A stretch of DNA of 23,861 nt from a virus (lineage: Duplodnaviria; Heunggongvirae; Uroviricota; Caudoviricetes): positions 1 to 23,861 of the IMG/VR virus record IMGVR_UViG_2579778956_000004, one strand, 5' to 3'. The notes under the pieces are model-generated. The model worked only from the letters and a program-made list of their open reading frames with translations. It made no database searches and had not been told where the DNA came from. Of the stretch, positions 1,255 through 22,721 are shown piece by piece. How positions within the stretch are numbered: the stretch's first letter is position 1; each line of letters begins with the position of its first letter. Made by a program: the position numbers and the translations under genes.

Positions 1255-1449
1255 TTAATTATTCTGCTGATTTTCTTCCATCTCGGCTTCTGCTGCCAGT
1301 GATTCAATTTTGTCTGCGAATATTGCTGACAGCGTTGCAAATTCAGCATCAGTGACAGCGGGAATTGGAACAAACCTGATCCCGCTGTGTGCAAGCATGT
1401 TTGCAGTTTCAAGGCATTTCCTTAAATCTGCTGGTGATGCCCGGTTCAT
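1255..1449 (-). CDS. Small hypothetical protein (64 aa), translationally coupled to the methyltransferase
   Basis: ATG at 1449-1447 overlaps the methyltransferase stop in an ATGA arrangement (plus strand 1446-1449 = TCAT). Product MNRASPADLRKCLETANMLAHSGIRFVPIPAV... has an acidic C-terminus. Convergent with int, 3 nt from its stop. No family recognised. Confidence 0.35.
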   Translation of the reverse strand: MNRASPADLRKCLETANMLAHSGIRFVPIPAVTDAEFATLSAIFADKIESLAAEAEMEENQQNN

Positions 1450-2096
1450 GCTGCACGCTCCCGCCCCTGGTTGTCTGTTGGTGACAGCGGAGCATTGCTG
1501 AATGCATTTGTTAATCTGGCAATATCCAACGCGTATCCAGGGTGTAGTTGCACTGCCGGGTCTTCGCACTGATTACCCCAAACATCGAAGCCATGAGACG
1601 ACTGGCGGGCGAACAGTTCAATGCGAGAAACATCGCCTAACAATTGCACAAGTTTTTCACGAACGACATCTGGTTTTCTTGAATGCTCAAGCCGCGGTGC
1701 GGTAAATGACTGAACGATCCCTGCATTAATGCGCGGAGGTAGTTTTCCCTTTACTGCAAACAGGCAATCTTCACTATTGGCGCGAGTCATGTGACCCATA
1801 CCCATAACCAGTTTATCTGGTTGTCGACTACCACATTTTATCCACGTGAATCCCTTCATGGTCATCAGACGGAATCCCCAGGCTTCAACAACTTTTAGTG
1901 CTTCGAGTGGTTGTGTTGGCACCCACCACATGGCCAACAGACAGTTTTCATCGGCCAAATCCCACACAGGAAGGCGGCAGATATCCATCACACTCATAAC
2001 CGGATATTTAAAACCGGCACCGCGATTACCATCTGCGGCTTTGTCCCGGTATACCCAGGGTGGATCTGCATAGATTAGTGTGTATTTCTTAGTCAT
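1446..2096 (-). CDS. MT-A70-family N6-adenine DNA methyltransferase (orphan, phage-type)
   Basis: 216-aa product MTKKYTLIYADPPWVYRDKAADGNRGAGFKYPVMSV... carries the DPPW catalytic motif near the N-terminus, as in MT-A70/Dam-like phage methyltransferases. No adjacent restriction endonuclease gene. Confidence 0.85.
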   Translation of the reverse strand: MTKKYTLIYADPPWVYRDKAADGNRGAGFKYPVMSVMDICRLPVWDLADENCLLAMWWVPTQPLEALKVVEAWGFRLMTMKGFTWIKCGSRQPDKLVMGMGHMTRANSEDCLFAVKGKLPPRINAGIVQSFTAPRLEHSRKPDVVREKLVQLLGDVSRIELFARQSSHGFDVWGNQCEDPAVQLHPGYALDIARLTNAFSNAPLSPTDNQGRERAA

Positions 2097-2795: not shown

Positions 2796-3239
2796 TTACA
2801 TAGATGTTTCGTTTAATTCTTCCCGACGAACGCTGTAAACGTCGGTGGCTTTTGCCAGCAGTTCGTCATCATCTGAAAGTTTTTGTGCAATGTATTTGTA
2901 AGCCTTATCCAGTTCGGAGACAGTGCTGTAATTCATCGCTGCGCTGGTATCCGCTACATCACGAAGAAATGCTTCTTCGTCAGCTTTACCTTGTTTCGTC
3001 CGACGATCGAACTTCGGTGAAACAATGAAGCGTTTGTCGAATTCTCCAGGCTCCAGAAGCAGACAGTGCAATGCGGTTCCAATATCCAGTGCAGACTTTT
3101 TCTCTTCGTCTTCTGGTGCTGCCTGGACCCATTTAAGAAGCGCCGGATTCTTGGCAACCATGTCCAGTTGCGACTTACTCACGCCGTCACCGGCGTGGTA
3201 GTCTTCGTTGCTGATGTCGAAATAAATTCCCGGTTTCAT
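2796..3239 (-). CDS. RecE-like / PD-(D/E)XK-family nuclease N-terminal domain protein, probably truncated
   Basis: N-terminus MKPGIYFDISNEDYHAGDGVSKSQLDMVAKNPALLKW...GTALHCLLLEPGEF resembles the N-terminal region of exodeoxyribonuclease-VIII-like prophage nucleases. Only 147 aa, whereas this family is usually about twice as long as I recall it. Confidence 0.45.
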   Translation of the reverse strand: MKPGIYFDISNEDYHAGDGVSKSQLDMVAKNPALLKWVQAAPEDEEKKSALDIGTALHCLLLEPGEFDKRFIVSPKFDRRTKQGKADEEAFLRDVADTSAAMNYSTVSELDKAYKYIAQKLSDDDELLAKATDVYSVRREELNETSM

Positions 3240-4483: not shown

Positions 4484-4550
4484 TTACCCAACAGGTAAAT
4501 GCACCTCATGGGTAACTATCCTTGATTTTTGTTACCTTATAGGTGAATAT
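4484..4550. promoter_or_regulatory. Divergent immunity promoter/operator region (OR-like) with three operator-like sites
   Basis: TTACCCAACAGGTAA (4484-4498, perfect), GCACCTCATGGGTAA (4501-4515, half-site degenerate), TTACCTTATAGGTGA (4532-4546, one mismatch). Candidate rightward sigma-70 promoter TTGATT (4522-4527), 17-nt spacer, GAATAT (4545-4550) overlaps the third site. Confidence 0.5.
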
Positions 4551-4582
4551 TTATTATCTGAAATAAATATCAGGCAATAGCT

Positions 4583-4813
4583 ATGAGCGATAACGGACAT
4601 TTCGATTTCAAAAAGCACTGGCTTGCACTTACTCCGGATGAGCGTGAAGCCTTCGCACAGGAAGCCGGAACGACGAGTCACTATATCCAGACTCACTTAA
4701 CAGGTAAGCGCAAAATGCCAGGTAAGGTATTGATGGATGGGCTTTTTAAAGCCTGTAAATCAAGACAATGGCTGCGCTCAAAAGCAGAACTGGCATACTT
4801 CTTCTACTCATGA
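4583..4813 (+). CDS. Cro-like small DNA-binding regulator
   Basis: 76-aa ORF transcribed divergently from the repressor, immediately downstream of the operator cluster. Product MSDNGHFDFKKHWLALTPDEREAFAQEAGTTSHYIQTHLTGKRK... is consistent with Cro/YdaS-like HTH proteins. Confidence 0.55.
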   Translation: MSDNGHFDFKKHWLALTPDEREAFAQEAGTTSHYIQTHLTGKRKMPGKVLMDGLFKACKSRQWLRSKAELAYFFYS

Positions 4814-4835
4814 TATCCAGCCACAACCCTCTGTA

Positions 4836-4858
4836 GACCGCCATCCGGCGGTCTTTTC
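4836..4858 (+). terminator. Rho-independent terminator after the Cro-like gene (tR1-like position)
   Basis: GACCGCC-ATCC-GGCGGTC stem-loop followed by TTTTCAT, 23 nt downstream of the Cro-like stop. Confidence 0.6.
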
Positions 4859-4868
4859 ATATCTATTC

Positions 4869-4883
4869 GTACCTCAAAGGTAA
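4869..4883. promoter_or_regulatory. Operator-like palindrome upstream of the replication operon
   Basis: GTACCTCAAAGGTAA, one mismatch from TTACC-N5-GGTAA. Lies between the terminator and the ATG at 4963 and is preceded by the 11-mer ATCTATTCGTA (4861-4871). Confidence 0.4.
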
Positions 4884-4962
4884 TAAAAACCAAATATGGT
4901 TGATCTTTTTTTTGTGTCAGCACAAAATAACCGTAATCCCAATACTAATAACAGGGCTTACC

Positions 4963-5163
4963 ATGGAAATCATTACACGTATTGATGCCGCAAAGCGCGG
5001 ACTTAAACGCTACTACACCGGAAAAACATGTAAGCACGGACATGACAGTGAACGCTGGGTTTACAACGGACACTGTGTTGAGTGCACCATGGAATCAAAC
5101 CGTCGTATCAGGGCAGAGATTAAGCAGATCATGATTAATTCCTCCCCACAACATTCAAGCTGA
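4963..5163 (+). CDS. Small Cys/His-rich protein (66 aa), possible zinc-ribbon regulator
   Basis: Start chosen at the internal ATG at 4963 (MEIITRIDAAKRGLKRYYTGKTCKHGHDSERWVYNGHCVECT...), preceded by AGGG. The upstream extension in the ORF track would run through the promoter region. Cys-x-His-Gly-His ... His-Cys-x-x-Cys spacing suggests metal binding. Confidence 0.45.
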   Translation: MEIITRIDAAKRGLKRYYTGKTCKHGHDSERWVYNGHCVECTMESNRRIRAEIKQIMINSSPQHSS

Positions 5164-5178
5164 TAGCGGAGATTAATC

Positions 5179-5994
5179 ATGAGCAGACATGCAACAGATT
5201 GGGCCTGGGAGACAGATCCAGGTAGCTCGTCATTAAAGCTCATACTGCTCTCGATGGCTGACAGAGCCGATGAATATAACCTCTGCTACCCCAGCATAGA
5301 ACGCCTCGTTAAAGACACTTGCCTGAATAAAAAAACCGTGCAGGCCGGACTTATATCGCTCATGAAAATGGGGCTTATTTCAGATACCGGGGAGAGAAAG
5401 GGAGCGACAAAAAGAGTGCGGGTTTTCTCTCTTAATATAACCAAAAACGGGAACATTAAAGGCAACCGAGAGGGGGGCAATGAACCCGAAAACGGTAATG
5501 TTACCGAAAACGGGAATATACCCAAAAACGGGATGTTGAATGATCCCAAAAACGGGATGTTGAATGATCCCAAAAACGGGATCCAGAACCAGTCATATAA
5601 CCAGTCATTTAACCAAGAGAGGGAGAGCAGGACAAAAAACGGGGATTCTGTGCATCATGACCCCGGCGCAAACAACGCCGTGATGAATAACTTTGTTCCT
5701 CCTGGTGGGTCAGGGCAATTAGGCAAATTTGTCATGCATGAACAATGGCAGCCATCAGATGACTTTCTTCGGAAAAGCTCATTGCAGGGGATCTACCTGG
5801 ACAGTCTGCCAACGGCACAGGAACTTGCAGAGTTCAGAATTTACTGGATGGCTGAGGGTAAGGCATACCATCAGGCACAGTGGGAGCAGAAGCTGGCAAG
5901 GCGGCTGCAGATTAGCAGACAGAAGCAATCAACATTACCTGATAACAACGTTCCGCACTGGAACAGCCCTGAAGCATGGGAGGATTTCTTGTGA
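5179..5994 (+). CDS. Replication initiator, lambda-O-like (N-terminal HTH, repeat-encoded linker, C-terminal domain)
   Basis: SD GGAG before the ATG at 5179. N-terminal LKLILLSMADRADEYNLCYPSIERLVKDTCLNKKTVQAGLISLMKMGLI is HTH-like. The central region is encoded by the iteron repeats. The stop overlaps the next gene start (GTGA at 5991-5994). Confidence 0.7.
   Translation: MSRHATDWAWETDPGSSSLKLILLSMADRADEYNLCYPSIERLVKDTCLNKKTVQAGLISLMKMGLISDTGERKGATKRVRVFSLNITKNGNIKGNREGGNEPENGNVTENGNIPKNGMLNDPKNGMLNDPKNGIQNQSYNQSFNQERESRTKNGDSVHHDPGANNAVMNNFVPPGGSGQLGKFVMHEQWQPSDDFLRKSSLQGIYLDSLPTAQELAEFRIYWMAEGKAYHQAQWEQKLARRLQISRQKQSTLPDNNVPHWNSPEAWEDFL
5441..5645 (+). repeat. Iteron-like direct repeats inside the initiator gene (candidate origin of replication)
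   Basis: Seven copies of an AAAACGG(G/T)A core at about 5443, 5489, 5506, 5524, 5548, 5572 and 5634, including two perfect tandem 24-bp units CCCAAAAACGGGATGTTGAATGAT (5521-5544, 5545-5568). Followed by AACCAGTCAT x2 (5587-5608) in an AT-richer stretch. Confidence 0.6.
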
Positions 5995-8510
5995 ACAACG
6001 TTTTTACCGCGATACAAAACCGTGACGGAGAAGCCCTTTCTCGCATGTCAGGTTATGAGCATCAGTACACCAACAATGACAACGTGGTGAACATGTCAGC
6101 AGAGAGGCTTGTTGATGCCCTTTTCAAACAGCTGAAACAACTGTTTCCGGCGGCAGTGGTAACCAACCTGAAGACGCCAGAGCAGGAAGTTGCTGCAAAA
6201 CAGCAGTGGATTGCTGCGTTTGCCGAAGGTGGGATCCGAACCCGTGAACAGGTTTCTGCTGGTATGCGCCACGCCCGCGCCAGTGAATCTCCGTTCTGGC
6301 CGTCGCCAGGGCAATTCATCAAGTGGTGCAAAGACAGCAAGATGGTTCTTGGCGTCACCATTGACGATGTGATGGCGGAGTTTCACCGGTACAGCAAGGA
6401 AAAAAGTTTATATCCTGGTGGTCCCGAAAGATTCCCGTGGCGGCATCCGGTTATGTACTGGGTCGTATGTGATACCCGCCGTGCAATGTATCAGCGCCAG
6501 CTTAGCGAGATTGAGGTTGAGAAACACGCGCGCAGGCTGCTCGATGATTGGGCGAAAAAGGTGGCTTCCGGACAGCAGATACCCGATCCGGTGATCAGCA
6601 TACAGGCAAAGCCAGAGCCCATGAGTACACCTCCGGACACAGGGAGAGACGTTTACCATCCACCAGGGCGAAGTTTCGGGTGCATGCCTAACGCCGCTAT
6701 TCGCCGTGCAGATAGTAACTACTATCGCGCCGTTACAGCAGGCAAAACAGGTACTTTGCGCCCTTCGCATACAGAAGGCACATCATGGGATGGCTGGGGC
6801 GGATCCGGTGATGATGACACTGGCATTGAGTGGGAATATCTGCACAGTGGTTTTGGCATTGCCCGTATCACTGCTGCAAATGGAACTACTGCAACTGCCG
6901 AGGTGATTTCCTATATCCCTTCGCAGGTAGTTGGCGAGGATAATGCCAGCTATAAATGGGCTAAATATGCCTGGAACAGTGTTAATGGTTATCCTGGCAC
7001 TGTTGTTTATTATCAACAACGTCTTTACTTCGCCGCATCGACTGCGTTCCCTCAGACTATCTGGGCCAGCCGTACTGGGGATTATAAGGATTTTGGCAAA
7101 AGCAATCCTACGCAGGATGACGACAGAATTATCTACACCTATGCCGGGCGTCAGGTTAATGAGATCCGTCACCTGATTGATGTTGGTTCGCTGGTGGCAC
7201 TGACTTCCGGAGGTGAGTACGTCATCACCGGCGACCAGAACAAAGTGTTAACCCCATCATCATTTGCATTCAGCTCTCAGGGATCAAATGGCTCAAGCAA
7301 CGTCCCGCCAATTGCCGTGGCGAATATTGCTTTGTTCGTCCAGGAGAAAGGCAGTGTTGTACGTGATCTGGCCTACTCATTCGATGTTGACGGCTATCAG
7401 GGGAACGACCTGACCATCCTTGCCAATCATCTTTTTCAGAAGCACAGCATTGTTGACTGGTGCTTCTCGATTGTCCCTTACTCCAGCGCCTTCTGCATTC
7501 GTGATGACGGTAAATTGCTGGTGATGACCTATTTGCGTGATCAGCAGGTTTTTGCATGGGCACCACAATCCAGTACCGGGAAATATGAAAGCACATGCAG
7601 TATCAGCGAAGGCAATGAAGATGCGGTGTATTTCGTCGTTAACCGAACCGTTAACGGGCAAACAGTGAGATACATAGAGCGACTGTCCAGCCGTTTATTT
7701 ACCAGCGATGAAGATGCTTTCTTTGTTGATTCTGGCCTTAGCTATGATGGAAGAAATACGTCTGACAGAACGATGACCATCACTGGTGGTTCTGGTGAAT
7801 GGGATTACCGCGCGGAATATACAATCAGTATTTCTGGTGGTGCGTACTTCACCAGTAGTGATGTCGGCGCGCAACTACAGTTCCCTTATGCCGGAACTGA
7901 TCCTGATACTGGCGATGAAGTGTCAAAAGAATTACGTTGCGACATTATTTCTGTAACCAGCAATACCGCTGTAGTGGTTCGTGCTAACAGGAACGTCCCG
8001 CCATCCCTCAGGAATGTGGCCACCACGAACTGGCAGATGGCGCGCCGGACATTTGGCGGCTTGTCTCATCTTGAAGGCCAGACCGTAAACATCCTCTCTG
8101 ATGCGAACGTGGAACCACAGAAAGTGGTTTCCGGAGGTGCCGTCACGCTGGAATCTCCGGGGGCTGTAGTGCACATCGGCCTGCCAATAACTGCTGAATT
8201 CGAAACACTGGATATCAACATTAACGGACAGGAAACGCTGCTGGACAAAAAACAGGTGATCCCGTCCGTTACTCTGGTTGTGAATGCCAGTCGCGGCATC
8301 TGGGCGACTACGCCCGGCGGTAAATGGTACGAATATCCACAGCGTGAATTCGAGTTCTACGATGATCCTGTTGATGACGCTACCGGAAAAGTAGAAGTAA
8401 AACTGGACAGTAACTGGGGCAAAAACGGACGTGTAAGAATCCGTCAGCTTGACCCGTTGCCGCTGTCTGTTCTTGCCGTTATTCCTCGTCTTACTGTTGG
8501 GGGATTCTGA
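5991..8510 (+). CDS. Chimeric ORF: lambda-P-like replication protein N-terminal region continuous with about 600 aa of structural-type (tail-tube-like?) sequence
   Basis: Start assigned to GTG 5991, with SD GGGAGGA 6 nt upstream and coupled to the O-like stop. The first ~215 aa include KQQWIAAFAEGGIRTREQVSAGMRHARASESPFWPSPGQFIKWC, which closely parallels lambda P as I recall it (RQWVLAFRENGITTMEQVNAGMRVARRQNRPFLPSPGQFVAWC). The remainder is a Gly/Ser/Thr-rich sequence with no intervening stop, and its stop overlaps the next gene start. Confidence 0.6.
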   Translation: MNNVFTAIQNRDGEALSRMSGYEHQYTNNDNVVNMSAERLVDALFKQLKQLFPAAVVTNLKTPEQEVAAKQQWIAAFAEGGIRTREQVSAGMRHARASESPFWPSPGQFIKWCKDSKMVLGVTIDDVMAEFHRYSKEKSLYPGGPERFPWRHPVMYWVVCDTRRAMYQRQLSEIEVEKHARRLLDDWAKKVASGQQIPDPVISIQAKPEPMSTPPDTGRDVYHPPGRSFGCMPNAAIRRADSNYYRAVTAGKTGTLRPSHTEGTSWDGWGGSGDDDTGIEWEYLHSGFGIARITAANGTTATAEVISYIPSQVVGEDNASYKWAKYAWNSVNGYPGTVVYYQQRLYFAASTAFPQTIWASRTGDYKDFGKSNPTQDDDRIIYTYAGRQVNEIRHLIDVGSLVALTSGGEYVITGDQNKVLTPSSFAFSSQGSNGSSNVPPIAVANIALFVQEKGSVVRDLAYSFDVDGYQGNDLTILANHLFQKHSIVDWCFSIVPYSSAFCIRDDGKLLVMTYLRDQQVFAWAPQSSTGKYESTCSISEGNEDAVYFVVNRTVNGQTVRYIERLSSRLFTSDEDAFFVDSGLSYDGRNTSDRTMTITGGSGEWDYRAEYTISISGGAYFTSSDVGAQLQFPYAGTDPDTGDEVSKELRCDIISVTSNTAVVVRANRNVPPSLRNVATTNWQMARRTFGGLSHLEGQTVNILSDANVEPQKVVSGGAVTLESPGAVVHIGLPITAEFETLDININGQETLLDKKQVIPSVTLVVNASRGIWATTPGGKWYEYPQREFEFYDDPVDDATGKVEVKLDSNWGKNGRVRIRQLDPLPLSVLAVIPRLTVGGF

Positions 8511-13866: not shown

Positions 13867-16341
13867 ATGAGACAGGAATGTATACAAGCGGTCCAGCAGG
13901 CGGCGCAGCGCACGTTAACGGAGCGAGAAATACAGAACATTGAAGACCGCATTTATCGAAATATGCGCTCCATTGCTCGTGATGACCCGATGTCGTGGAG
14001 ACAACTTTCCGAATCAGAGCGGCTATATCGAGCAGCACAATTGGCATCTGAAGAATTACAGCGAGAAGCGGCATTAAAGAAACGTCGTGTGGCCCTCACT
14101 ATAGCCGCACGTCAGAGATTGGATAAATTTATCAATAGCTATCAAGGGGCTGATGGGAAACTTGGCGCTCTTAACCGTACTATTGCTTTTAATGCAGACG
14201 GTAAATCGAATTTCCTCTCTGTTGAGTCCAGAACAAAAGCCACTCGTGATTATGCATTGAGTCAATTGCAGGAGGCATTTGAAGCAGTTGATCCTCGCTT
14301 TTTTGGCCTGTTTGAAGATGAAGCTGGCGTACGTGACCTGGTATATGAAATGCGAGGGCAAAATACTGGCAATGCTAAAGCAAGAAAAGGTGCTAAGGCG
14401 TGGAGAGAAGTGACAGATCTACTGCGCCGCCGGTTTAATGATGCTGGTGGGGACATTGGCTATCTCGAAAACTGGGGGATCCCTCAACATCATTCTATGG
14501 AAAAGGTTGGGGCGGTATCAAAGGATAAGTGGGTTAGCGATGTTATAGGTAAGCTGGATCGCAAATATTATATCCGAGCCGATGGACAACTGATGAACGA
14601 TGCCGAGTTGTCTGCATTTCTTGGAGAGGCTTATAACACGATCGCTACAGGTGGGCTGAATAAGCTTACTGATACCGGAATGCGAATTTCCGGCGCACGT
14701 GCTAACCGTGGTAATGCATCACGACAGATACATTTCAAAGATGCAGATTCCTATCTGCAATATCAGCAACTTTATGGCGATCGCTCTCTATGGGAAATCA
14801 TGGTCGGTCACCTTGAAGGTATCAGTAAAGATATTGCACTGGTGGAAACATATGGCCCAAACCCCGATCATGTTTTCCGCTCTCTTCTTGATCAGGTGAA
14901 GGCAGAAACGGCAACAGCTAACCCGAGTAAAACCGGTAAAGTCGAGCGGCTGGCGAACAACACAGAGAATCTGTACAACTTTATTTCCGGAAAGACACAG
15001 CCTGTAGCGAATCCGCACATCGCGCGATGGTCTGACAATATCCGCAACTGGTTGGTTGCCAGCAGACTCGGATCCGCGTTGCTGTCATCGTTCTCTGACC
15101 TTGGAACCATGTATCTGTCTGCGAAGGTTACCAACCTTCCAATGAACCAGTTATTCCGCAACCAGCTTGAAGCTATGGACCCAACGAACCGTACAGAACT
15201 TGCGCGGGCGCGCCGCGCTGGTCTGGCGATGGAATCTCTACTTGGCAGCGTTAACCGCTGGGCGATGGATAATATGGGGCCGTCTGTGTCTCGTTGGGCT
15301 GCAACGGCGGTAATGCGTGCCAGTGGGCTTACAGCATGGTCAGATGCGCACAAGCGCGCCTATGGCGTAACCATGATGGGAAGCCTGGGAGAAGTAGTGT
15401 CACGGACACCAGACCTTCGTAGCCTCGATGATTCTGATTTTCGTATCCTGAAAAGCAAAGGGATTACTGACACAGACTGGAGCGTATGGAAGCTGGCGCA
15501 ACAGGAGGACTGGGGGAACGGCAATAATACGATGCTGACACCGGAAAGCATTATGCGTATCCCTGATTCAGCAGTTAAACATCTTGGTGAGCCTGAACGC
15601 GTGAAATTTGAGGCAACGCGCAAACTGCTCGGTGCCGTAACTGAAGAAGTTGATATGGCTGTTATTACACCGGGAGCACGTGAGCAACTGATAACCGGTT
15701 CTGGTATTCAGCGTGGAACATGGAAAGGTGAATTAACGAGAAGTGTTTTCCTGTTTAAATCGTTCCCTATCTCGGTGGTTATGCGTCACTGGTCACGCGC
15801 TATGGGTATGCCGTCTGCTGGTGGGCGTGCGGCATATATTGCGACGTTTATTGCCAGTACGACCATTCTTGGCGCTTTGTCGCAGCAACTTAACGACCTT
15901 GCGTCTGGTCGTAATCCTCGCGAGATGACAGGAGAAGATGCTGCTAAATTTTGGCTTGGTGCTCTACTGAAAGGTGGTGGTCTTGGCCTTTACGGTGACT
16001 TTTTATTGTCAGATCACACTAGGTACGGAAGCGGCGCGCTGGCGTCGATGCTTGGCCCGGTAGCTGGTCTGGTTGATGACGTAGTGAAGATTGCTCAGGG
16101 CATACCGTTAAATGCTGTGGAAGGGAAGAGTGAGCAGACTGGTGGTGATCTGGTTAAGCTTGGGAAGGGGCTGATGCCAGGTGCAAATCTCTGGTACTTG
16201 AAGGCGGCTCTCGATCACATGATTTTTAACCAGATGCAGGAGTATTTTTCACCAGGCTATTTGCGTAAAATGGAGCAACGTTCGAAGAAAGAGTTTAACC
16301 AGACATACTGGTGGCGACCTCAGGATGTCACTCCGCAATAA
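13867..16341 (+). CDS. Large internal virion / ejection protein
   Basis: 824 aa; SD GAGAGG precedes the ATG at 13867. Last gene of the tightly coupled structural series. No specific motif recognised. Confidence 0.55.
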   Translation: MRQECIQAVQQAAQRTLTEREIQNIEDRIYRNMRSIARDDPMSWRQLSESERLYRAAQLASEELQREAALKKRRVALTIAARQRLDKFINSYQGADGKLGALNRTIAFNADGKSNFLSVESRTKATRDYALSQLQEAFEAVDPRFFGLFEDEAGVRDLVYEMRGQNTGNAKARKGAKAWREVTDLLRRRFNDAGGDIGYLENWGIPQHHSMEKVGAVSKDKWVSDVIGKLDRKYYIRADGQLMNDAELSAFLGEAYNTIATGGLNKLTDTGMRISGARANRGNASRQIHFKDADSYLQYQQLYGDRSLWEIMVGHLEGISKDIALVETYGPNPDHVFRSLLDQVKAETATANPSKTGKVERLANNTENLYNFISGKTQPVANPHIARWSDNIRNWLVASRLGSALLSSFSDLGTMYLSAKVTNLPMNQLFRNQLEAMDPTNRTELARARRAGLAMESLLGSVNRWAMDNMGPSVSRWAATAVMRASGLTAWSDAHKRAYGVTMMGSLGEVVSRTPDLRSLDDSDFRILKSKGITDTDWSVWKLAQQEDWGNGNNTMLTPESIMRIPDSAVKHLGEPERVKFEATRKLLGAVTEEVDMAVITPGAREQLITGSGIQRGTWKGELTRSVFLFKSFPISVVMRHWSRAMGMPSAGGRAAYIATFIASTTILGALSQQLNDLASGRNPREMTGEDAAKFWLGALLKGGGLGLYGDFLLSDHTRYGSGALASMLGPVAGLVDDVVKIAQGIPLNAVEGKSEQTGGDLVKLGKGLMPGANLWYLKAALDHMIFNQMQEYFSPGYLRKMEQRSKKEFNQTYWWRPQDVTPQ

Positions 16342-16350
16342 GGAAGTGTT

Positions 16351-16524
16351 GTGTTTTTAATTATTTTGAGTGTGATAATTTCTGTTGGGTTGTTATTTAT
16401 TGACCGCTACAAATATTTTCTTAACCCTCAGACTCAAGCTATTTGCTGGTTCATCTTTGTTGTGCAGGGAGTAGTTCTTGTTGCAAGCCTTATTGAGGGG
16501 AGGCCTCTTATTTTTACTGGGTAA
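16351..16524 (+). CDS. Small hydrophobic protein (57 aa), putative membrane protein
   Basis: Not in the ORF track. GTG 16351 with AGGAAG 4 nt upstream. Product VFLIILSVIISVGLLFIDRYKYFLNPQTQAICWFIFVVQGVVLVASLIEGRPLIFTG has two predicted hydrophobic helices. Confidence 0.3.
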   Translation: MFLIILSVIISVGLLFIDRYKYFLNPQTQAICWFIFVVQGVVLVASLIEGRPLIFTG

Positions 16525-16536
16525 ATAGGTGACTAC

Positions 16537-16833
16537 ATGCAAGCTATAGGATTCATTGTTTATATCGTCGTTGGTCTTTTTCAGTTGGCAGCAATTATGG
16601 CTGGGCTTGAATCATGGTGGGGATTGCACTGGATAATTGCAGCCCCCATTGCTTTCATCGTGAGCTATATTCCATTTGTTGGAGCGATTGTTGGTATGGT
16701 TGGCGCTGTGGATGTATGGCGGTGGGAGTGGTGGCAGGCTGGCCTTCTCTTCTTTGGTGGGATCATCTTTGCTATTGTCTGCGGTGGAATGTCATCATTT
16801 TTCGAATGGCTATCATTCAGAAAAGGGACGTGA
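16537..16833 (+). CDS. Small integral membrane protein (98 aa)
   Basis: Three hydrophobic segments (IGFIVYIVVGLFQLAAIMAGL; WIIAAPIAFIVSYIPFVGAIVGMVGAV; GLLFFGGIIFAIVCGG) with Trp-rich loops. Followed by a terminator. Confidence 0.5.
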   Translation: MQAIGFIVYIVVGLFQLAAIMAGLESWWGLHWIIAAPIAFIVSYIPFVGAIVGMVGAVDVWRWEWWQAGLLFFGGIIFAIVCGGMSSFFEWLSFRKGT

Positions 16834-16842
16834 CATGTCACA

Positions 16843-16866
16843 GGCCGCTTTCGCGGCCTTTTCTTT
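16843..16866 (+). terminator. Rho-independent terminator after the small membrane genes
   Basis: GGCCGC-TTTC-GCGGCC stem-loop followed by TTTTCTTT. It overlaps the stop codon of the convergent minus-strand gene. Confidence 0.5.
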
Positions 16867-17122
16867 ATGTGGTTTGTTTTCGTAATTGTTCGGCACAATA
16901 GTCTAGATGTGTTTGCAGATCCTGCATAGACATCTGTGAGCTGGTGACGTAGTTAATCAGTGCAGTCAGTTCGGCAAGTGGGCCATCGACATTAAATCCA
17001 TCTTTATCGAGATCCCGGAGTAATTTCATCAAGTGCGATCCATCCACCAGTGACCTGACGCCTCCCGGCGTGTGAATCCTTTCGGTAAATCCGTCTTCCA
17101 GTGGATAGTGATACTGCTGCAT
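16865..17122 (-). CDS. Small SOS-regulated protein (85 aa), candidate antirepressor
   Basis: Start assigned to ATG at 17122 (MQQYHYPLEDGFTERIHTPGGVRSLVDGSHLMKLLRDLDKDGF...) with GGAG 8 nt upstream. The longer 126-aa ORF in the track would read through the LexA box and operator. A near-consensus LexA box sits about 20 nt upstream of this ATG. Confidence 0.55.
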   Translation of the reverse strand: MQQYHYPLEDGFTERIHTPGGVRSLVDGSHLMKLLRDLDKDGFNVDGPLAELTALINYVTSSQMSMQDLQTHLDYCAEQLRKQTT

Positions 17123-17141
17123 CTTATCTTCTCCATGCAAT

Positions 17142-17161
17142 AACTGTATATTTATACAGTA
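17142..17161. promoter_or_regulatory. LexA (SOS) box
   Basis: AACTGTATATTTATACAGTA matches the E. coli LexA consensus TACTGTATATATATACAGTA at 18 of 20 positions, with the CTGT-N8-ACAG core perfect. On the minus strand a TATAAA -10-like hexamer lies inside the box. Confidence 0.75.
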
Positions 17162-22594: not shown

Positions 22595-22721
22595 TTTCCG
22601 GTGACGGTATATAAAACGGTACGGTGAAAATCAGGTTGCAGAAAGTTGTTATCAGTCAATTGGTTATGGTATCCGTAAATAATTGAGTGGGAATGATTTT
22701 AATCCCTGCACTATGAATGAA

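What the first reader, a model, noticed from the sequence alone, without database searches (positions are those of the whole stretch)
5441..5645. Iteron array and AT-richer repeat inside the O-like initiator gene: candidate origin of replication
Seven copies of an AAAACGG(G/T)A core, spaced about 17-24 bp and including two perfect tandem 24-bp units, lie in the middle of the initiator ORF and encode its repetitive linker (ENGNVT ENGNIP KNGMLNDP KNGMLNDP KNGIQNQS). A direct AACCAGTCAT duplication follows. This mirrors lambda, where ori iterons sit inside gene O and encode the inter-domain linker.
Basis: partly seen in the sequence, partly recalled or inferred. Interest (0 to 1): 0.5.

Follow-up and report, generated by a model that had tools for sequence, protein, structure and literature searches.

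The report
Replication origin inside phage initiator gene
The repeats are real and are most likely the replication origin of a phiV10/epsilon15-like E. coli prophage, built like phage lambda's origin (initiator-binding repeats inside the initiator's own gene), which makes it an expected feature but one not yet described for this phage group.

Summary
Window 5440-5583 carries six, not seven, exact copies of AAAACGG(G/T)A, against 0.28 expected in the whole window. Start-to-start spacing is 45, 18, 18, 24, 24 bp. Three 12-bp units, (G/T)AACC..., follow at 5586-5621. All lie inside a 271-aa initiator gene (5179-5994): a winged-helix HTH_36 N-domain, a repeat-encoded linker and a DnaT-like C-domain.

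The window is a deleted phiV10-like prophage.

In 62 of 69 prophage and phage loci sharing the N-domain, a similar array follows that domain. In 45 of the 62 the copies fall in two or three reading frames, and about half the spacings are not multiples of 3. So the DNA is conserved, not the peptide.

The repeats are dyads whose arms change together between taxa. The C-terminal 110 aa fall into 18 groups with no mutual BLASTP match. One relative, Edwardsiella phage GF-2, joins this N-domain and repeat type to lambda O's C-domain and a P gene.

Three (G/T)AAYC units at 12-13 bp follow the last repeat in 52 of 69 loci, against 1 of 403 control windows with three.

Verdict: a lambda-style in-gene origin, inferred and not tested. 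It is a new member of a known kind. The AT-richness is marginal, and the seventh copy is doubtful.

The parts
5179..5994 (+). Initiator gene, 271 aa. It is the counterpart of phiV10 gp43, annotated 'putative primosomal protein'.
   Evidence: ORF. Pfam HTH_36 at aa 18-67 (E 1.8e-10) and DnaT DNA-binding domain at aa 184-252 (E 1.1e-15). PHROG 1032 'replication initiation protein', E 4.6e-108. The surrounding region (window 4800-6400) is 98-99% identical to phiV10, phiv142-3 and PAS61.
5179..5442 (+). Coding region of the N-terminal winged-helix domain (aa 1-88), the presumed iteron-binding module.
5440..5452 (+). Iteron I1, ACCAAAAACGGGA. It is the distal copy with weak dyad symmetry, 45 bp before I2.
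   Evidence: The 45/46-bp first gap recurs in Acinetobacter prophage relatives, e.g. L136 and L118.
5485..5497 (+). Iteron I2, CCCGAAAACGGTA.
5503..5515 (+). Iteron I3, ACCGAAAACGGGA.
5521..5533 (+). Iteron I4, CCCAAAAACGGGA.
5543..5558 (+). Iteron I5, ATCCCAAAAACGGGAT. It has 5-bp perfect dyad arms, ATCCC/GGGAT.
   Evidence: Dyad arms change together in relatives.
5566..5583 (+). Iteron I6, GATCCCAAAAACGGGATC. It has 6-bp perfect dyad arms and lies next to the 12-mers.
   Evidence: It carries two of the three clustered GATC sites.
5586..5621 (+). Three 12-bp units: GAACCAGTCATA, TAACCAGTCATT, TAACCAAGAGAG. This is the candidate DNA-unwinding or helicase-entry element.
   Evidence: Tandem Repeats Finder, 12-bp period. 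Three (G/T)AAYC units at 12-13 bp follow the last iteron in 52 of 69 related loci; of 403 control windows, one has a chain of three and one a chain of two. They are read in different frames in relatives. They sit where lambda and P22 have their AT-rich regions. phiV10 has one extra AACCAGTCATAT unit. Duplex stability is only mildly low.
5636..5644 (+). Probably not an iteron.
   Evidence: It does not match AAAACGGKA. It is replaced by TKTG, TKSG or TKAG codons in most close relatives.
5719..5973 (+). Coding region of the DnaT-like C-terminal domain (aa 181-265).
   Evidence: phmmer against the PDB: E. coli DnaT C-domain entries 6AEP, 4OU6, 4OU7, 2RU8 and 9ZBT, E 1e-18 to 7.5e-21. The domain is conserved in Uetakevirus relatives that carry other N-domains but the same P-like neighbour.
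5976..6697 (+). P-like helicase-loader gene, truncated at 6697 and fused in frame to a tail gene. The whole ORF is 5976-8510.
   Evidence: Pfam Phage_lambda_P at aa 45-205. PHROG 109 'P-like helicase loader' at aa 7-219, then tail-protein PHROGs at aa 244-844. Homology to phiV10 stops at 6697. The downstream DNA matches tail genes about 14 kb away in intact relatives.

Best explanation
Window 5440-5621 is the replication origin of this phiV10/epsilon15-like prophage, embedded in the gene of its own initiator.

Proposed mechanism:
1. Dimers of the initiator's N-terminal winged-helix domain bind six dyad-symmetric iterons. The core is (A/G)TCCC-AAAAAC-GGGA(T/C), spaced 45, 18, 18, 24, 24 bp.
2. 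The resulting nucleoprotein complex destabilises the adjacent triple 12-mer (G/T)AACC element at 5586-5621.
3. The C-terminal DnaT-like domain then holds single-stranded DNA, recruits the lambda-P-like loader with host DnaB, or does both.

The peptide linker (ENGN.../KNGMLNDP...) is a by-product of having to encode the iterons in frame. Unit gain and loss by slippage changes the iteron number between strains.

Shown here: the repeats, their dyad symmetry, their conservation as DNA, their link to the N-domain, the domain folds, and the gene context.
Inferred: binding, unwinding, helicase loading, and origin activity itself.
For: - Enrichment: six exact AAAACGGKA copies in the array against 0.28 expected in the window. 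There are perfect 24-bp tandem units.
- Family-wide conservation: 62 of 69 loci encoding a homologous N-domain have at least 4 copies of a related repeat within 330 nt after that domain, always inside the ORF. The loci come from Enterobacterales, Vibrio, Pseudoalteromonas, Marinomonas, Acinetobacter, Sphingobium, Desulfovibrionaceae and Burkholderia. Control windows give mostly 2-3 and at most 4.
- DNA, not peptide: the copies use 2 or 3 reading frames in 45 of 62 loci. Of the spacings, 119 of 241 are not multiples of 3, with main classes 24, 17, 22 and 18 bp. One DNA motif therefore encodes PKNG, TQKRD or IPKTE.
- Shared layout: the pattern 45, 17/18, 17/18, 24, 24 is found both in the window and in Acinetobacter prophages.
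- Dyad arms change together between taxa: TCCC..GGGA, GTACC..GGTAC, CCCCC..GGGGG, GTCGGA..TCCGAC. This fits binding by dimeric winged-helix proteins.
- Module behaviour: the N-domain forms one BLASTP group, while the last 110 aa form 18 groups with no mutual match. Uetakevirus alleles with other N-domains but the same DnaT-like C-domain lack the array.
- Natural swap: the GF-2 initiator has this N-domain and iteron type joined to lambda O's C-domain (62% identity, E 2e-67) and is followed by a P gene. Its DNA after the 12-mers also resembles lambda's right-hand origin palindrome.
- Lambda comparison: lambda's annotated iterons, ATCCCTCAAAACGAGGGA, have the same TCCC..AAAACG..GGGA design and 20-24-bp spacing.
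- Triple 12-13-mer: it is conserved in 52 of 69 loci, against one control window of 403 with a chain of three, and it shifts reading frame.
- Fold and family: the N-domain is predicted as a winged helix at pLDDT 88.9. The C-domain matches the E. coli DnaT C-terminal domain (PDB 'Primosomal protein 1', Pfam 'DnaT DNA-binding domain'). PHROGs call the family 'replication initiation protein'.
- Copy number varies from 3 to 9 in 80 near-identical contigs, and up to 11 in a 311-aa E. coli protein.
- Published precedent: lambda O, P22 gp18 and phage L gp18 each carry their own iterons inside their own genes (bioRxiv 10.1101/2020.10.05.325894; PMC7466680).
Against: - There is no experimental evidence for binding or origin firing in any member of this family, and none was found in the searchable literature.
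- The presumed unwinding element is only mildly unstable: 90th percentile, GC about 0.40. A more AT-rich intergenic stretch lies at 4860-4940 (97th percentile), and the least stable part of the gene is left of the array at 5420-5460.
- No DnaA box lies within 4500-6500.
- Sequence homology of the N-domain to lambda O is not established.
- In this window the P-like loader is truncated and fused, so the origin may be inactive in this element.
- In the window all spacings are multiples of 3. The reading-frame argument therefore rests on relatives.
Confidence: 0.78

Rival explanations
1. The repeats are initiator-binding sites used for control, while DNA melting and replication start occur elsewhere. 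Control here could mean autoregulation of the early operon, titration or handcuffing, or exclusion of related phages. The start site could be, for example, the AT-rich intergenic region at 4860-4940.
For: The stretch 4860-4940 is the least stable DNA nearby, at the 97th percentile, and its GC is 0.28-0.33. In lambda, plasmid-borne iterons can inhibit related phages (PMC3349717). In Stx phages the outer iterons are bound weakly yet are still needed (PMC7466680), which shows that iterons can have accessory roles.
Against: The stretch 4860-4940 has no repeats. It lies just downstream of the terminator-like hairpin at 4835-4854. The conserved triple 12-13-mer sits directly beside the last iteron in 52 of 69 loci, where lambda and P22 have their AT-rich regions. 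GF-2 keeps lambda-like right-hand origin DNA after these repeats.
Confidence: 0.1
2. The repeats matter only as protein. They encode a flexible, Asn/Gly/Pro-rich low-complexity linker that grows and shrinks by slippage, and the DNA sequence itself has no function.
For: In the window all copies are in one frame and encode (E/K)NG peptides. Unit number varies freely among E. coli strains, giving proteins of 263-311 aa. The single-sequence model predicts no confident structure for the linker, but that model is poor throughout.
Against: In 45 of 62 related loci the same DNA motif is read in 2-3 frames, giving unrelated peptides, and half the spacings are not multiples of 3. Dyad symmetry and paired changes in the arms have no meaning at the peptide level. 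The array follows the N-domain, not the linker's neighbours.
Confidence: 0.05
3. This is a non-functional remnant. The element is a decayed prophage, and the array is a relic that no longer does anything in this genome.
For: The window lacks 1.3 kb of recET and about 14 kb between P and a tail gene. P is fused to a tail protein.
Against: The initiator ORF and the array are intact. The surrounding region (window 4800-6400) is 98-99% identical to that of viable phages phiV10, phiv142-3 and PAS61. This rival concerns activity in this host only, not what the sequence is. The deletion junction is absent from all 5,426 complete E. coli genomes and could even be an assembly artefact.
Confidence: 0.07

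Closest known systems
Phage lambda O protein and ori-lambda, and the six-iteron origins of Stx phages 933W and P27
   Same: The iterons lie in the middle of the initiator's own gene and encode its inter-domain linker. Each iteron is an imperfect inverted repeat with an A-rich centre: lambda ATCCCTCAAAACGAGGGA against ATCCCAAAAACGGGAT here. Spacing is 20-24 bp in lambda and 18-24 bp here. The melting region lies on the downstream side, and a P-type helicase-loader gene follows. Iteron number varies between phages, 4 against 6.
   Different: The N-domain is Pfam HTH_36, not Phage_rep_O. The dyad spacer is 6 nt rather than 9. The C-domain is DnaT-like rather than the lambda O P-binding domain. 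The downstream region is not strongly AT-rich and is instead a sequence-conserved triple 12-13-mer. Nothing has been tested experimentally.
Edwardsiella phage GF-2 'putative DNA replication protein O' (AP014629)
   Same: It has the same N-domain family (57.5% identity by tblastn over the first 87 residues), the same kind of iteron (TCCCAAAATTGGGA at 18/24-bp spacing) and the same GAAYC 12-13-mers.
   Different: Its C-terminal 144 aa are lambda O-like (62% identity) instead of DnaT-like. It is a natural hybrid between the two systems. It is annotated only by similarity.
Salmonella phage P22 gene 18 and its annotated origin; phage L gene 18
   Same: The origin is annotated inside the initiator gene, with four repeats of about 20 bp followed by an AT-rich stretch. 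P22 even has GAATCAGTCA directly after its last iteron, close to GAACCAGTCA here. The phage L paper states the general rule that each such initiator has its own iterons in its own gene.
   Different: P22 gp18 is a Phage_rep_O protein and is followed by a DnaB-type helicase, not by P. Phage L gp18 shows no detectable relation to this N-domain and uses directly abutting 11-bp repeats.
E. coli DnaT (primosomal protein I), the source of the 'primosomal protein' annotation
   Same: The C-terminal 85 aa are clearly homologous to the DnaT C-terminal DNA-binding domain (PDB 4OU6, 4OU7, 6AEP, 9ZBT; E about 1e-20).
   Different: The N-terminal two-thirds are unrelated to DnaT. They consist of a winged-helix domain plus an iteron-encoded linker. 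The protein is a phage origin-binding initiator, not a replication-restart factor.
Iteron-type plasmid origins (RepA, RepE, pi, TrfA) and the three 13-mers of oriC
   Same: These have repeated initiator sites beside a short set of 12-13-bp repeats where melting starts. Their initiators are winged-helix proteins. Plasmid Rep proteins are reported to bind one strand of the unwinding-element repeats sequence-specifically (PMC4081077, abstract seen).
   Different: Here there is one winged-helix domain and dyad sites, implying dimer binding, rather than two winged-helix domains on direct repeats. There are no DnaA boxes. The origin lies inside a coding sequence.

Membership tests
Lambdoid in-gene origin (ori-lambda type) | An array of at least 4 repeated sites inside the initiator's own ORF, between its N- and C-terminal domains | tested here: met
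   Six exact cores at 5444-5581 lie inside ORF 5179-5994, between HTH_36 (aa 18-67) and the DnaT domain (aa 184-252).
Lambdoid in-gene origin (ori-lambda type) | Each iteron is an imperfect inverted repeat | tested here: met
   I5 is ATCCC/GGGAT and I6 is GATCCC/GGGATC, both perfect. I1-I4 are partial. Arms change together across relatives.
Lambdoid in-gene origin (ori-lambda type) | An AT-rich, easily melted region directly downstream of the iterons | tested here: inconclusive
   GC is 0.40-0.42. The 40-mer at 5580-5619 is at the 90th percentile of instability, which is not extreme. A conserved triple 12-13-mer does occupy this position.
Lambdoid in-gene origin (ori-lambda type) | A helicase-loader or helicase gene immediately downstream | tested here: met
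   A Phage_lambda_P domain ORF starts at 5976. It is intact in phiV10 and phiv142-3, but in this window it is truncated at 6697 and fused to a tail gene.
Lambdoid in-gene origin (ori-lambda type) | The initiator binds the iterons, and the fragment supports initiator-dependent replication | not testable with these tools
   This needs EMSA or footprinting and an origin-cloning assay. No published test was found.
Lambda O protein family (Pfam Phage_rep_O, PF04492) | The N-terminal domain matches PF04492 | tested here: not met
   Pfam reports HTH_36 only. Lambda O and P22 gp18 match PF04492 at E 6e-36 and 7e-38. hhalign against lambda O alone gives probability 2.9%. Against lambda O plus P22 gp18 it gives 42%, E 2.6e-4, which is suggestive only.
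Lambda O protein family (Pfam Phage_rep_O, PF04492) | A lambda O-type C-terminal (P-binding) domain | tested here: not met
   The C-domain is DnaT-like. The lambda O C-domain is present in the relative GF-2.
HTH_36 winged-helix initiator N-domain family (PF13730; PHROG 1032 and related) | A significant profile match and a winged-helix fold | tested here: met
DnaT (primosomal protein I) | The C-terminal DnaT DNA-binding domain | tested here: met
   PF17948 at E 1.1e-15. PDB 6AEP, 4OU6 and 9ZBT at E about 1e-20 over aa 180-265.
DnaT (primosomal protein I) | Full-length similarity, including the DnaT N-terminal domain | tested here: not met
   PDB matches cover only query aa 180-265, which correspond to DnaT residues 85-170. 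The N-terminus is HTH_36.
Iteron plasmid origins (RepA, pi, RepE type) | Direct repeats bound by monomers of a two-winged-helix Rep, with DnaA boxes nearby | tested here: not met
   The protein has a single winged-helix domain. The sites are dyads. No DnaA box lies in 4500-6500.

The most novel reading that the evidence does not exclude
The triple 12-13-bp (G/T)AAYCnnnCAnn element next to the last iteron may be more than a generic AT-rich melting zone. It may be a sequence-specific origin-opening signal. It travels with the HTH_36-type N-domain through at least 18 different C-terminal partners and many bacterial orders, and a near-identical word follows the last iteron of the P22 origin. If so, one strand would be read by the initiator or by a conserved host replisome component, as with DnaA-trios or Rep binding to plasmid unwinding-element 13-mers. 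That would define a portable two-part 'origin cassette' (winged-helix domain, dyad iterons and GAAYC triplet) embedded in coding DNA that must stay translatable in shifting frames.
Probability: 0.3. Interest if true: 0.55.

Novelty: new member of a known kind. Interest (0 to 1): 0.35.

Why it matters
- It locates the probable replication origin of the phiV10/epsilon15-like (Uetakevirus) prophages. At least one half of the 200-bp probe spanning the P gene and a tail gene matched 532 of 5,426 complete E. coli genomes.
- It corrects the 'primosomal protein' or 'DnaT' label on the initiator.
- Across the family it gives a clear example of DNA-level function overriding protein coding. The same origin repeats are translated in up to three frames within one gene.
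- It shows that the origin-recognition module (winged-helix domain, iterons and 12-13-mers) moves as a unit between different helicase-recruitment domains.
- In practice it suggests a minimal replicon for phiV10-based reporter or delivery phages, and a marker for annotating origins in many proteobacterial prophages.

Tried and rejected
- A single-sequence AlphaFold2 model of the whole protein was unusable (pLDDT 37). Only the N-domain model built with an alignment was used.
- Per-site polymorphism across 50 same-length close relatives was confounded by compensating indels inside the array, so it was discarded.
- hhalign of the N-domain against lambda O alone (probability 2.9%) and against phage L gp18 (1.4%) gave no support for homology.
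- Phage L gp18 was considered as a possible family member because its iteron TGTCCAACGGA looks similar. It was rejected.
- The first genome-contig query failed for lack of conserved columns and was redone with a smaller alignment.
- AY795968 turned out to be the wrong phage L record.
- Literature searches found no description of these repeats. The searches covered phiV10 with 'origin of replication', epsilon15 with 'iterons', HTH_36 with 'iterons', the literal iteron sequence, and DnaT with 'lambdoid'. The original phiV10 and epsilon15 genome papers are not in the searchable library, so earlier mention cannot be excluded.
- A DnaA-box scan of 4500-6500 found nothing.
- The promoter and terminator scan found nothing above background except the known terminator at 4835-4854 and hairpins created by adjacent iterons.
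- Fold searches gave only generic winged-helix matches and no specific initiator family.
Full report
**What is there.** The window is a phiV10/epsilon15-like (Uetakevirus) temperate phage of E. coli. Region 4800-6400 is 98-99% identical to phiv142-3, PAS61 and phiV10. The finding lies inside ORF 5179-5994 (271 aa). This is the counterpart of phiV10 gp43, annotated 'putative primosomal protein'. Pfam finds an N-terminal HTH_36 domain (aa 18-67) and a C-terminal DnaT DNA-binding domain (aa 184-252). PHROGs call the protein a replication initiation protein. The next gene carries a lambda-P domain.

**Check of the observation.** The exact pattern AAAACGG(G/T)A occurs six times between 5444 and 5581, plus one unrelated hit at 22613. 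The whole window is expected to hold 0.28, and no shuffle of 100 reached the observed seven matches. Start-to-start spacing is 45, 18, 18, 24, 24 bp. Tandem Repeats Finder reports an 18-bp period, a perfect 24-bp period x2.6 and a 12-bp period x2.4.

Three details need correction:
- The 'seventh' copy at 5636 reads AAAACGGGG. Most close relatives encode TKTG, TKSG or TKAG there.
- The '17-24 bp' spacing holds only for the central four intervals.
- The downstream region is only mildly AT-rich. GC is about 0.40, and it sits at the 90th percentile of duplex instability. The least stable part of the gene lies left of the array.

**Copy number among close relatives.** Eighty near-identical viral contigs have 3-9 exact cores. 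The perfect 24-mer occurs 0-5 times in them, and phiV10 has a third AACCAGTCATAT unit. E. coli proteins of 279, 287, 291 and up to 311 aa differ mostly by whole repeat units. The 311-aa protein encodes 11 (K/E)NG units. The array therefore gains and loses units by slippage, as lambda and Stx phages differ by four against six iterons (PMC7466680).

**Is the repeat a DNA element or a peptide repeat?** This was the key question, and relatives answer it.
- tblastn with the N-domain found 124 phage records.
- A scan of one genome per species found 65 prophage loci. They come from Enterobacterales, Vibrio, Pseudoalteromonas, Marinomonas, Acinetobacter, Sphingobium, Desulfovibrionaceae and others.
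- In 62 of 69 loci analysed, the 330 nt after the N-domain hold at least 4 copies (up to 10) of a 9-mer with at most one mismatch. Control windows give mostly 2-3 and never more than 4.
- Every array lies inside the ORF. Yet in 45 of 62 loci the copies fall in two or three reading frames. Of 241 spacings, 119 are not multiples of 3, with main classes 24, 17, 22 and 18 bp.
- In the Providencia locus L098, for example, the same DNA is read as TQKRD and as PKNG. In the Vibrio locus L095 three frames are used.

The nucleotide sequence is therefore what is conserved. The peptide follows from it. The layout 45, 17/18, 17/18, 24, 24 is shared between this window and Acinetobacter prophages.

**Nature of the repeat.** Each unit is a dyad around an A-rich centre. 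In the window, I5 is ATCCC-AAAAAC-GGGAT and I6 is GATCCC-AAAAAC-GGGATC. The distal copies are less symmetric. Across taxa the arms change together: TCCC..GGGA, GTACC..GGTAC, CCCCC..GGGGG, GTCGGA..TCCGAC. More distant HTH_36 initiators, such as the phage Min27 'O' protein, carry quite different repeats at the same place. This pattern is expected for sites bound by dimers of a co-evolving DNA-binding domain.

The N-domain is predicted with high confidence (pLDDT 88.9) as a winged helix. It resembles dimeric winged-helix DNA binders. At similar scores it also resembles the DnaD N-domain, a plasmid RepA and RctB domain 1. The match is generic.

**Link to origin function.**
- The N-domain forms a single homology group across the 69 loci. 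Their last 110 residues fall into 18 groups with no mutual BLASTP match.
- Conversely, Uetakevirus relatives keep the DnaT-like C-domain and the P gene but carry other N-domains. These are ZX5 and TL-2011b, and Tyrion and a Klebsiella phage. They lack the array.
- The array therefore belongs with the N-domain.
- Edwardsiella phage GF-2 joins this N-domain and its TCCCAAAATTGGGA repeats to the C-terminal domain of lambda O (62% identity over 144 aa, E 2e-67). A P gene follows. Its DNA after the repeats contains GAGAATTCTGACGAATCCTCAGAC, which is close to lambda's right-hand origin palindrome.
- This natural swap shows that the N-domain plus repeats occupies the place of lambda's origin-binding domain plus iterons.
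- Lambda's annotated iterons (ATCCCTCAAAACGAGGGA, spacing 20-24 bp) have the same design, with a 9-nt rather than a 6-nt spacer.

**The second repeat.** The AACCAGTCAT duplication is part of a conserved element. Three (G/T)AAYC units at 12-13-bp intervals follow the last iteron directly in 52 of 69 loci, and two units follow in 7 more. Of 403 control windows, one has a chain of three and one a chain of two. One interval is usually 13 bp, so the units shift frame (NQS, then EPV, and so on). This again points to constraint on the DNA.

The element sits where lambda and P22 have their AT-rich regions, which also contain 12-15-bp periodic repeats. P22 even has GAATCAGTCA right after its last iteron. 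I take this element to be the unwinding or helicase-entry site. That is an inference from position and from the analogy with lambda, P22 and the oriC 13-mers (the oriC part is from memory). It is not shown by the energy profile.

**Mechanism proposed.**
1. Initiator dimers bind I1-I6 through the winged helix (inferred).
2. The complex destabilises 5586-5621 (inferred).
3. The DnaT-like C-domain acts next. It is homologous to the E. coli DnaT C-terminal domain (PDB 'Primosomal protein 1'; E about 1e-20), which Pfam names the DnaT DNA-binding domain. It binds the opened strand, recruits the P-like loader with host DnaB, or does both. This step is inferred. The C-domain co-occurs with the P gene across N-domain alleles, which fits a role in loader contact.

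**Comparison with known systems.** The general rule is published: lambda O, P22 gp18 and phage L gp18 each have their own iterons inside their own genes. The origins of lambda and the Stx phages are well studied.

This protein is not a sequence member of the lambda O family. Pfam assigns HTH_36, not Phage_rep_O. A profile comparison gives only 42% probability. It is also not a DnaT orthologue, since only the C-domain matches.

I found no description of these repeats for phiV10, epsilon15 or any other member. The original genome papers are not in the searchable library.

I file the finding as a new member of a known kind. The frame-independent conservation across the family and the GAAYC triplet are the parts that may be new.

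**Caveats for this window.** The element is a deleted prophage.
- It lacks 1.3 kb of recET.
- It lacks about 14 kb between the P gene and a tail gene. This creates an in-frame P::tail fusion ORF at 5976-8510.
- The junction is absent from all 5,426 complete E. coli genomes, although at least one half of the 200-bp junction probe matches 532 of them.
- The junction is therefore either a rare deletion or an assembly artefact.
- The origin and the initiator gene are intact, but firing here may need P supplied in trans.

Noticed in passing
window 5976-8510 (junction at 6697/6698): The lambda-P-like helicase-loader gene loses its last ~95 bases and is fused in frame to the C-terminal about 600 aa of a tail protein. 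Roughly 14 kb of an intact phiV10-like genome (late early-operon genes, terminase, portal, capsid) is missing. The junction has about 5 bp of overlap and is absent from all 5,426 complete E. coli genomes. It is either a rare deletion or a misassembly.
   Followed up: partly
window ~2948 (ORF 2796-3239, minus strand): A second deletion of about 1.3 kb relative to phiV10 lies inside the recET gene. The remnant 147-aa ORF keeps only the start of a PDDEXK-like domain. Together with the P::tail fusion, this marks the element as a decayed prophage.
   Followed up: partly
window 5542-5583: Three GATC (Dam) sites sit in iterons I5-I6. This is the only 42-bp stretch with three GATC sites in the whole 23.9-kb window, where the mean spacing is 259 bp. 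Enterobacterial relatives also have GATC in the left arm of several iterons. Dam or SeqA control of origin firing is possible. The phage's own methylase (1446-2096, minus strand) belongs to the MT-A70 family and its specificity is unknown.
   Followed up: partly
window 5529-5548 and 5553-5572, minus strand: The right arm of one iteron pairs with the left arm of the next (GGGAT...ATCCC). On the minus strand this gives terminator-like hairpins followed by TTTTT. They are probably a by-product of the dyad iterons, but they could block antisense transcription or form cruciforms.
   Followed up: no
window 5466-5477 and 5612-5624: Degenerate iteron-like words, CCGAGAGGGGGG and CCAAGAGAGGGAG, occur in the 45-bp gap between I1 and I2 and again overlapping the third 12-mer. 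They may be decayed or low-affinity sites.
   Followed up: no
L003, L004 (ZX5, TL-2011b); L005, L006 (Tyrion, Klebsiella phage): Closely related Uetakevirus genomes carry initiator alleles with two other, unrelated N-terminal domains on the same DnaT-like C-domain, followed by the same P-like gene. They have no comparable repeat array in the gene. Their origins are unidentified.
   Followed up: partly
L160 1841-1985 (P22 origin) and L007 (GF-2): The P22 origin belongs to a Phage_rep_O initiator, yet it has GAATCAGTCA directly after its last iteron. The same word occurs in GF-2, and the window has GAACCAGTCA. This hints that the first unit of the unwinding element is shared across two initiator families.
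   Followed up: no
L159 1790-1855 (phage Min27 'O' gene): The Stx2 phage Min27 initiator is an HTH_36 protein, not a lambda-type O protein. It has three 21-24-bp repeats, GGGGTGGGGCAGGAGCTGCCC, right after its N-domain. An unusually long 'P' gene follows; its annotated span is record 14575-17157. This is another undescribed in-gene origin candidate.
   Followed up: no
window 4860-4940: This is the most AT-rich and least stable stretch near the replication genes (GC 0.28-0.33, 97th percentile of instability). It lies between the terminator at 4835-4854 and the small conserved gene at 4963-5163 (PHROG 1081, function unknown). It contains no repeats.
   Followed up: partly
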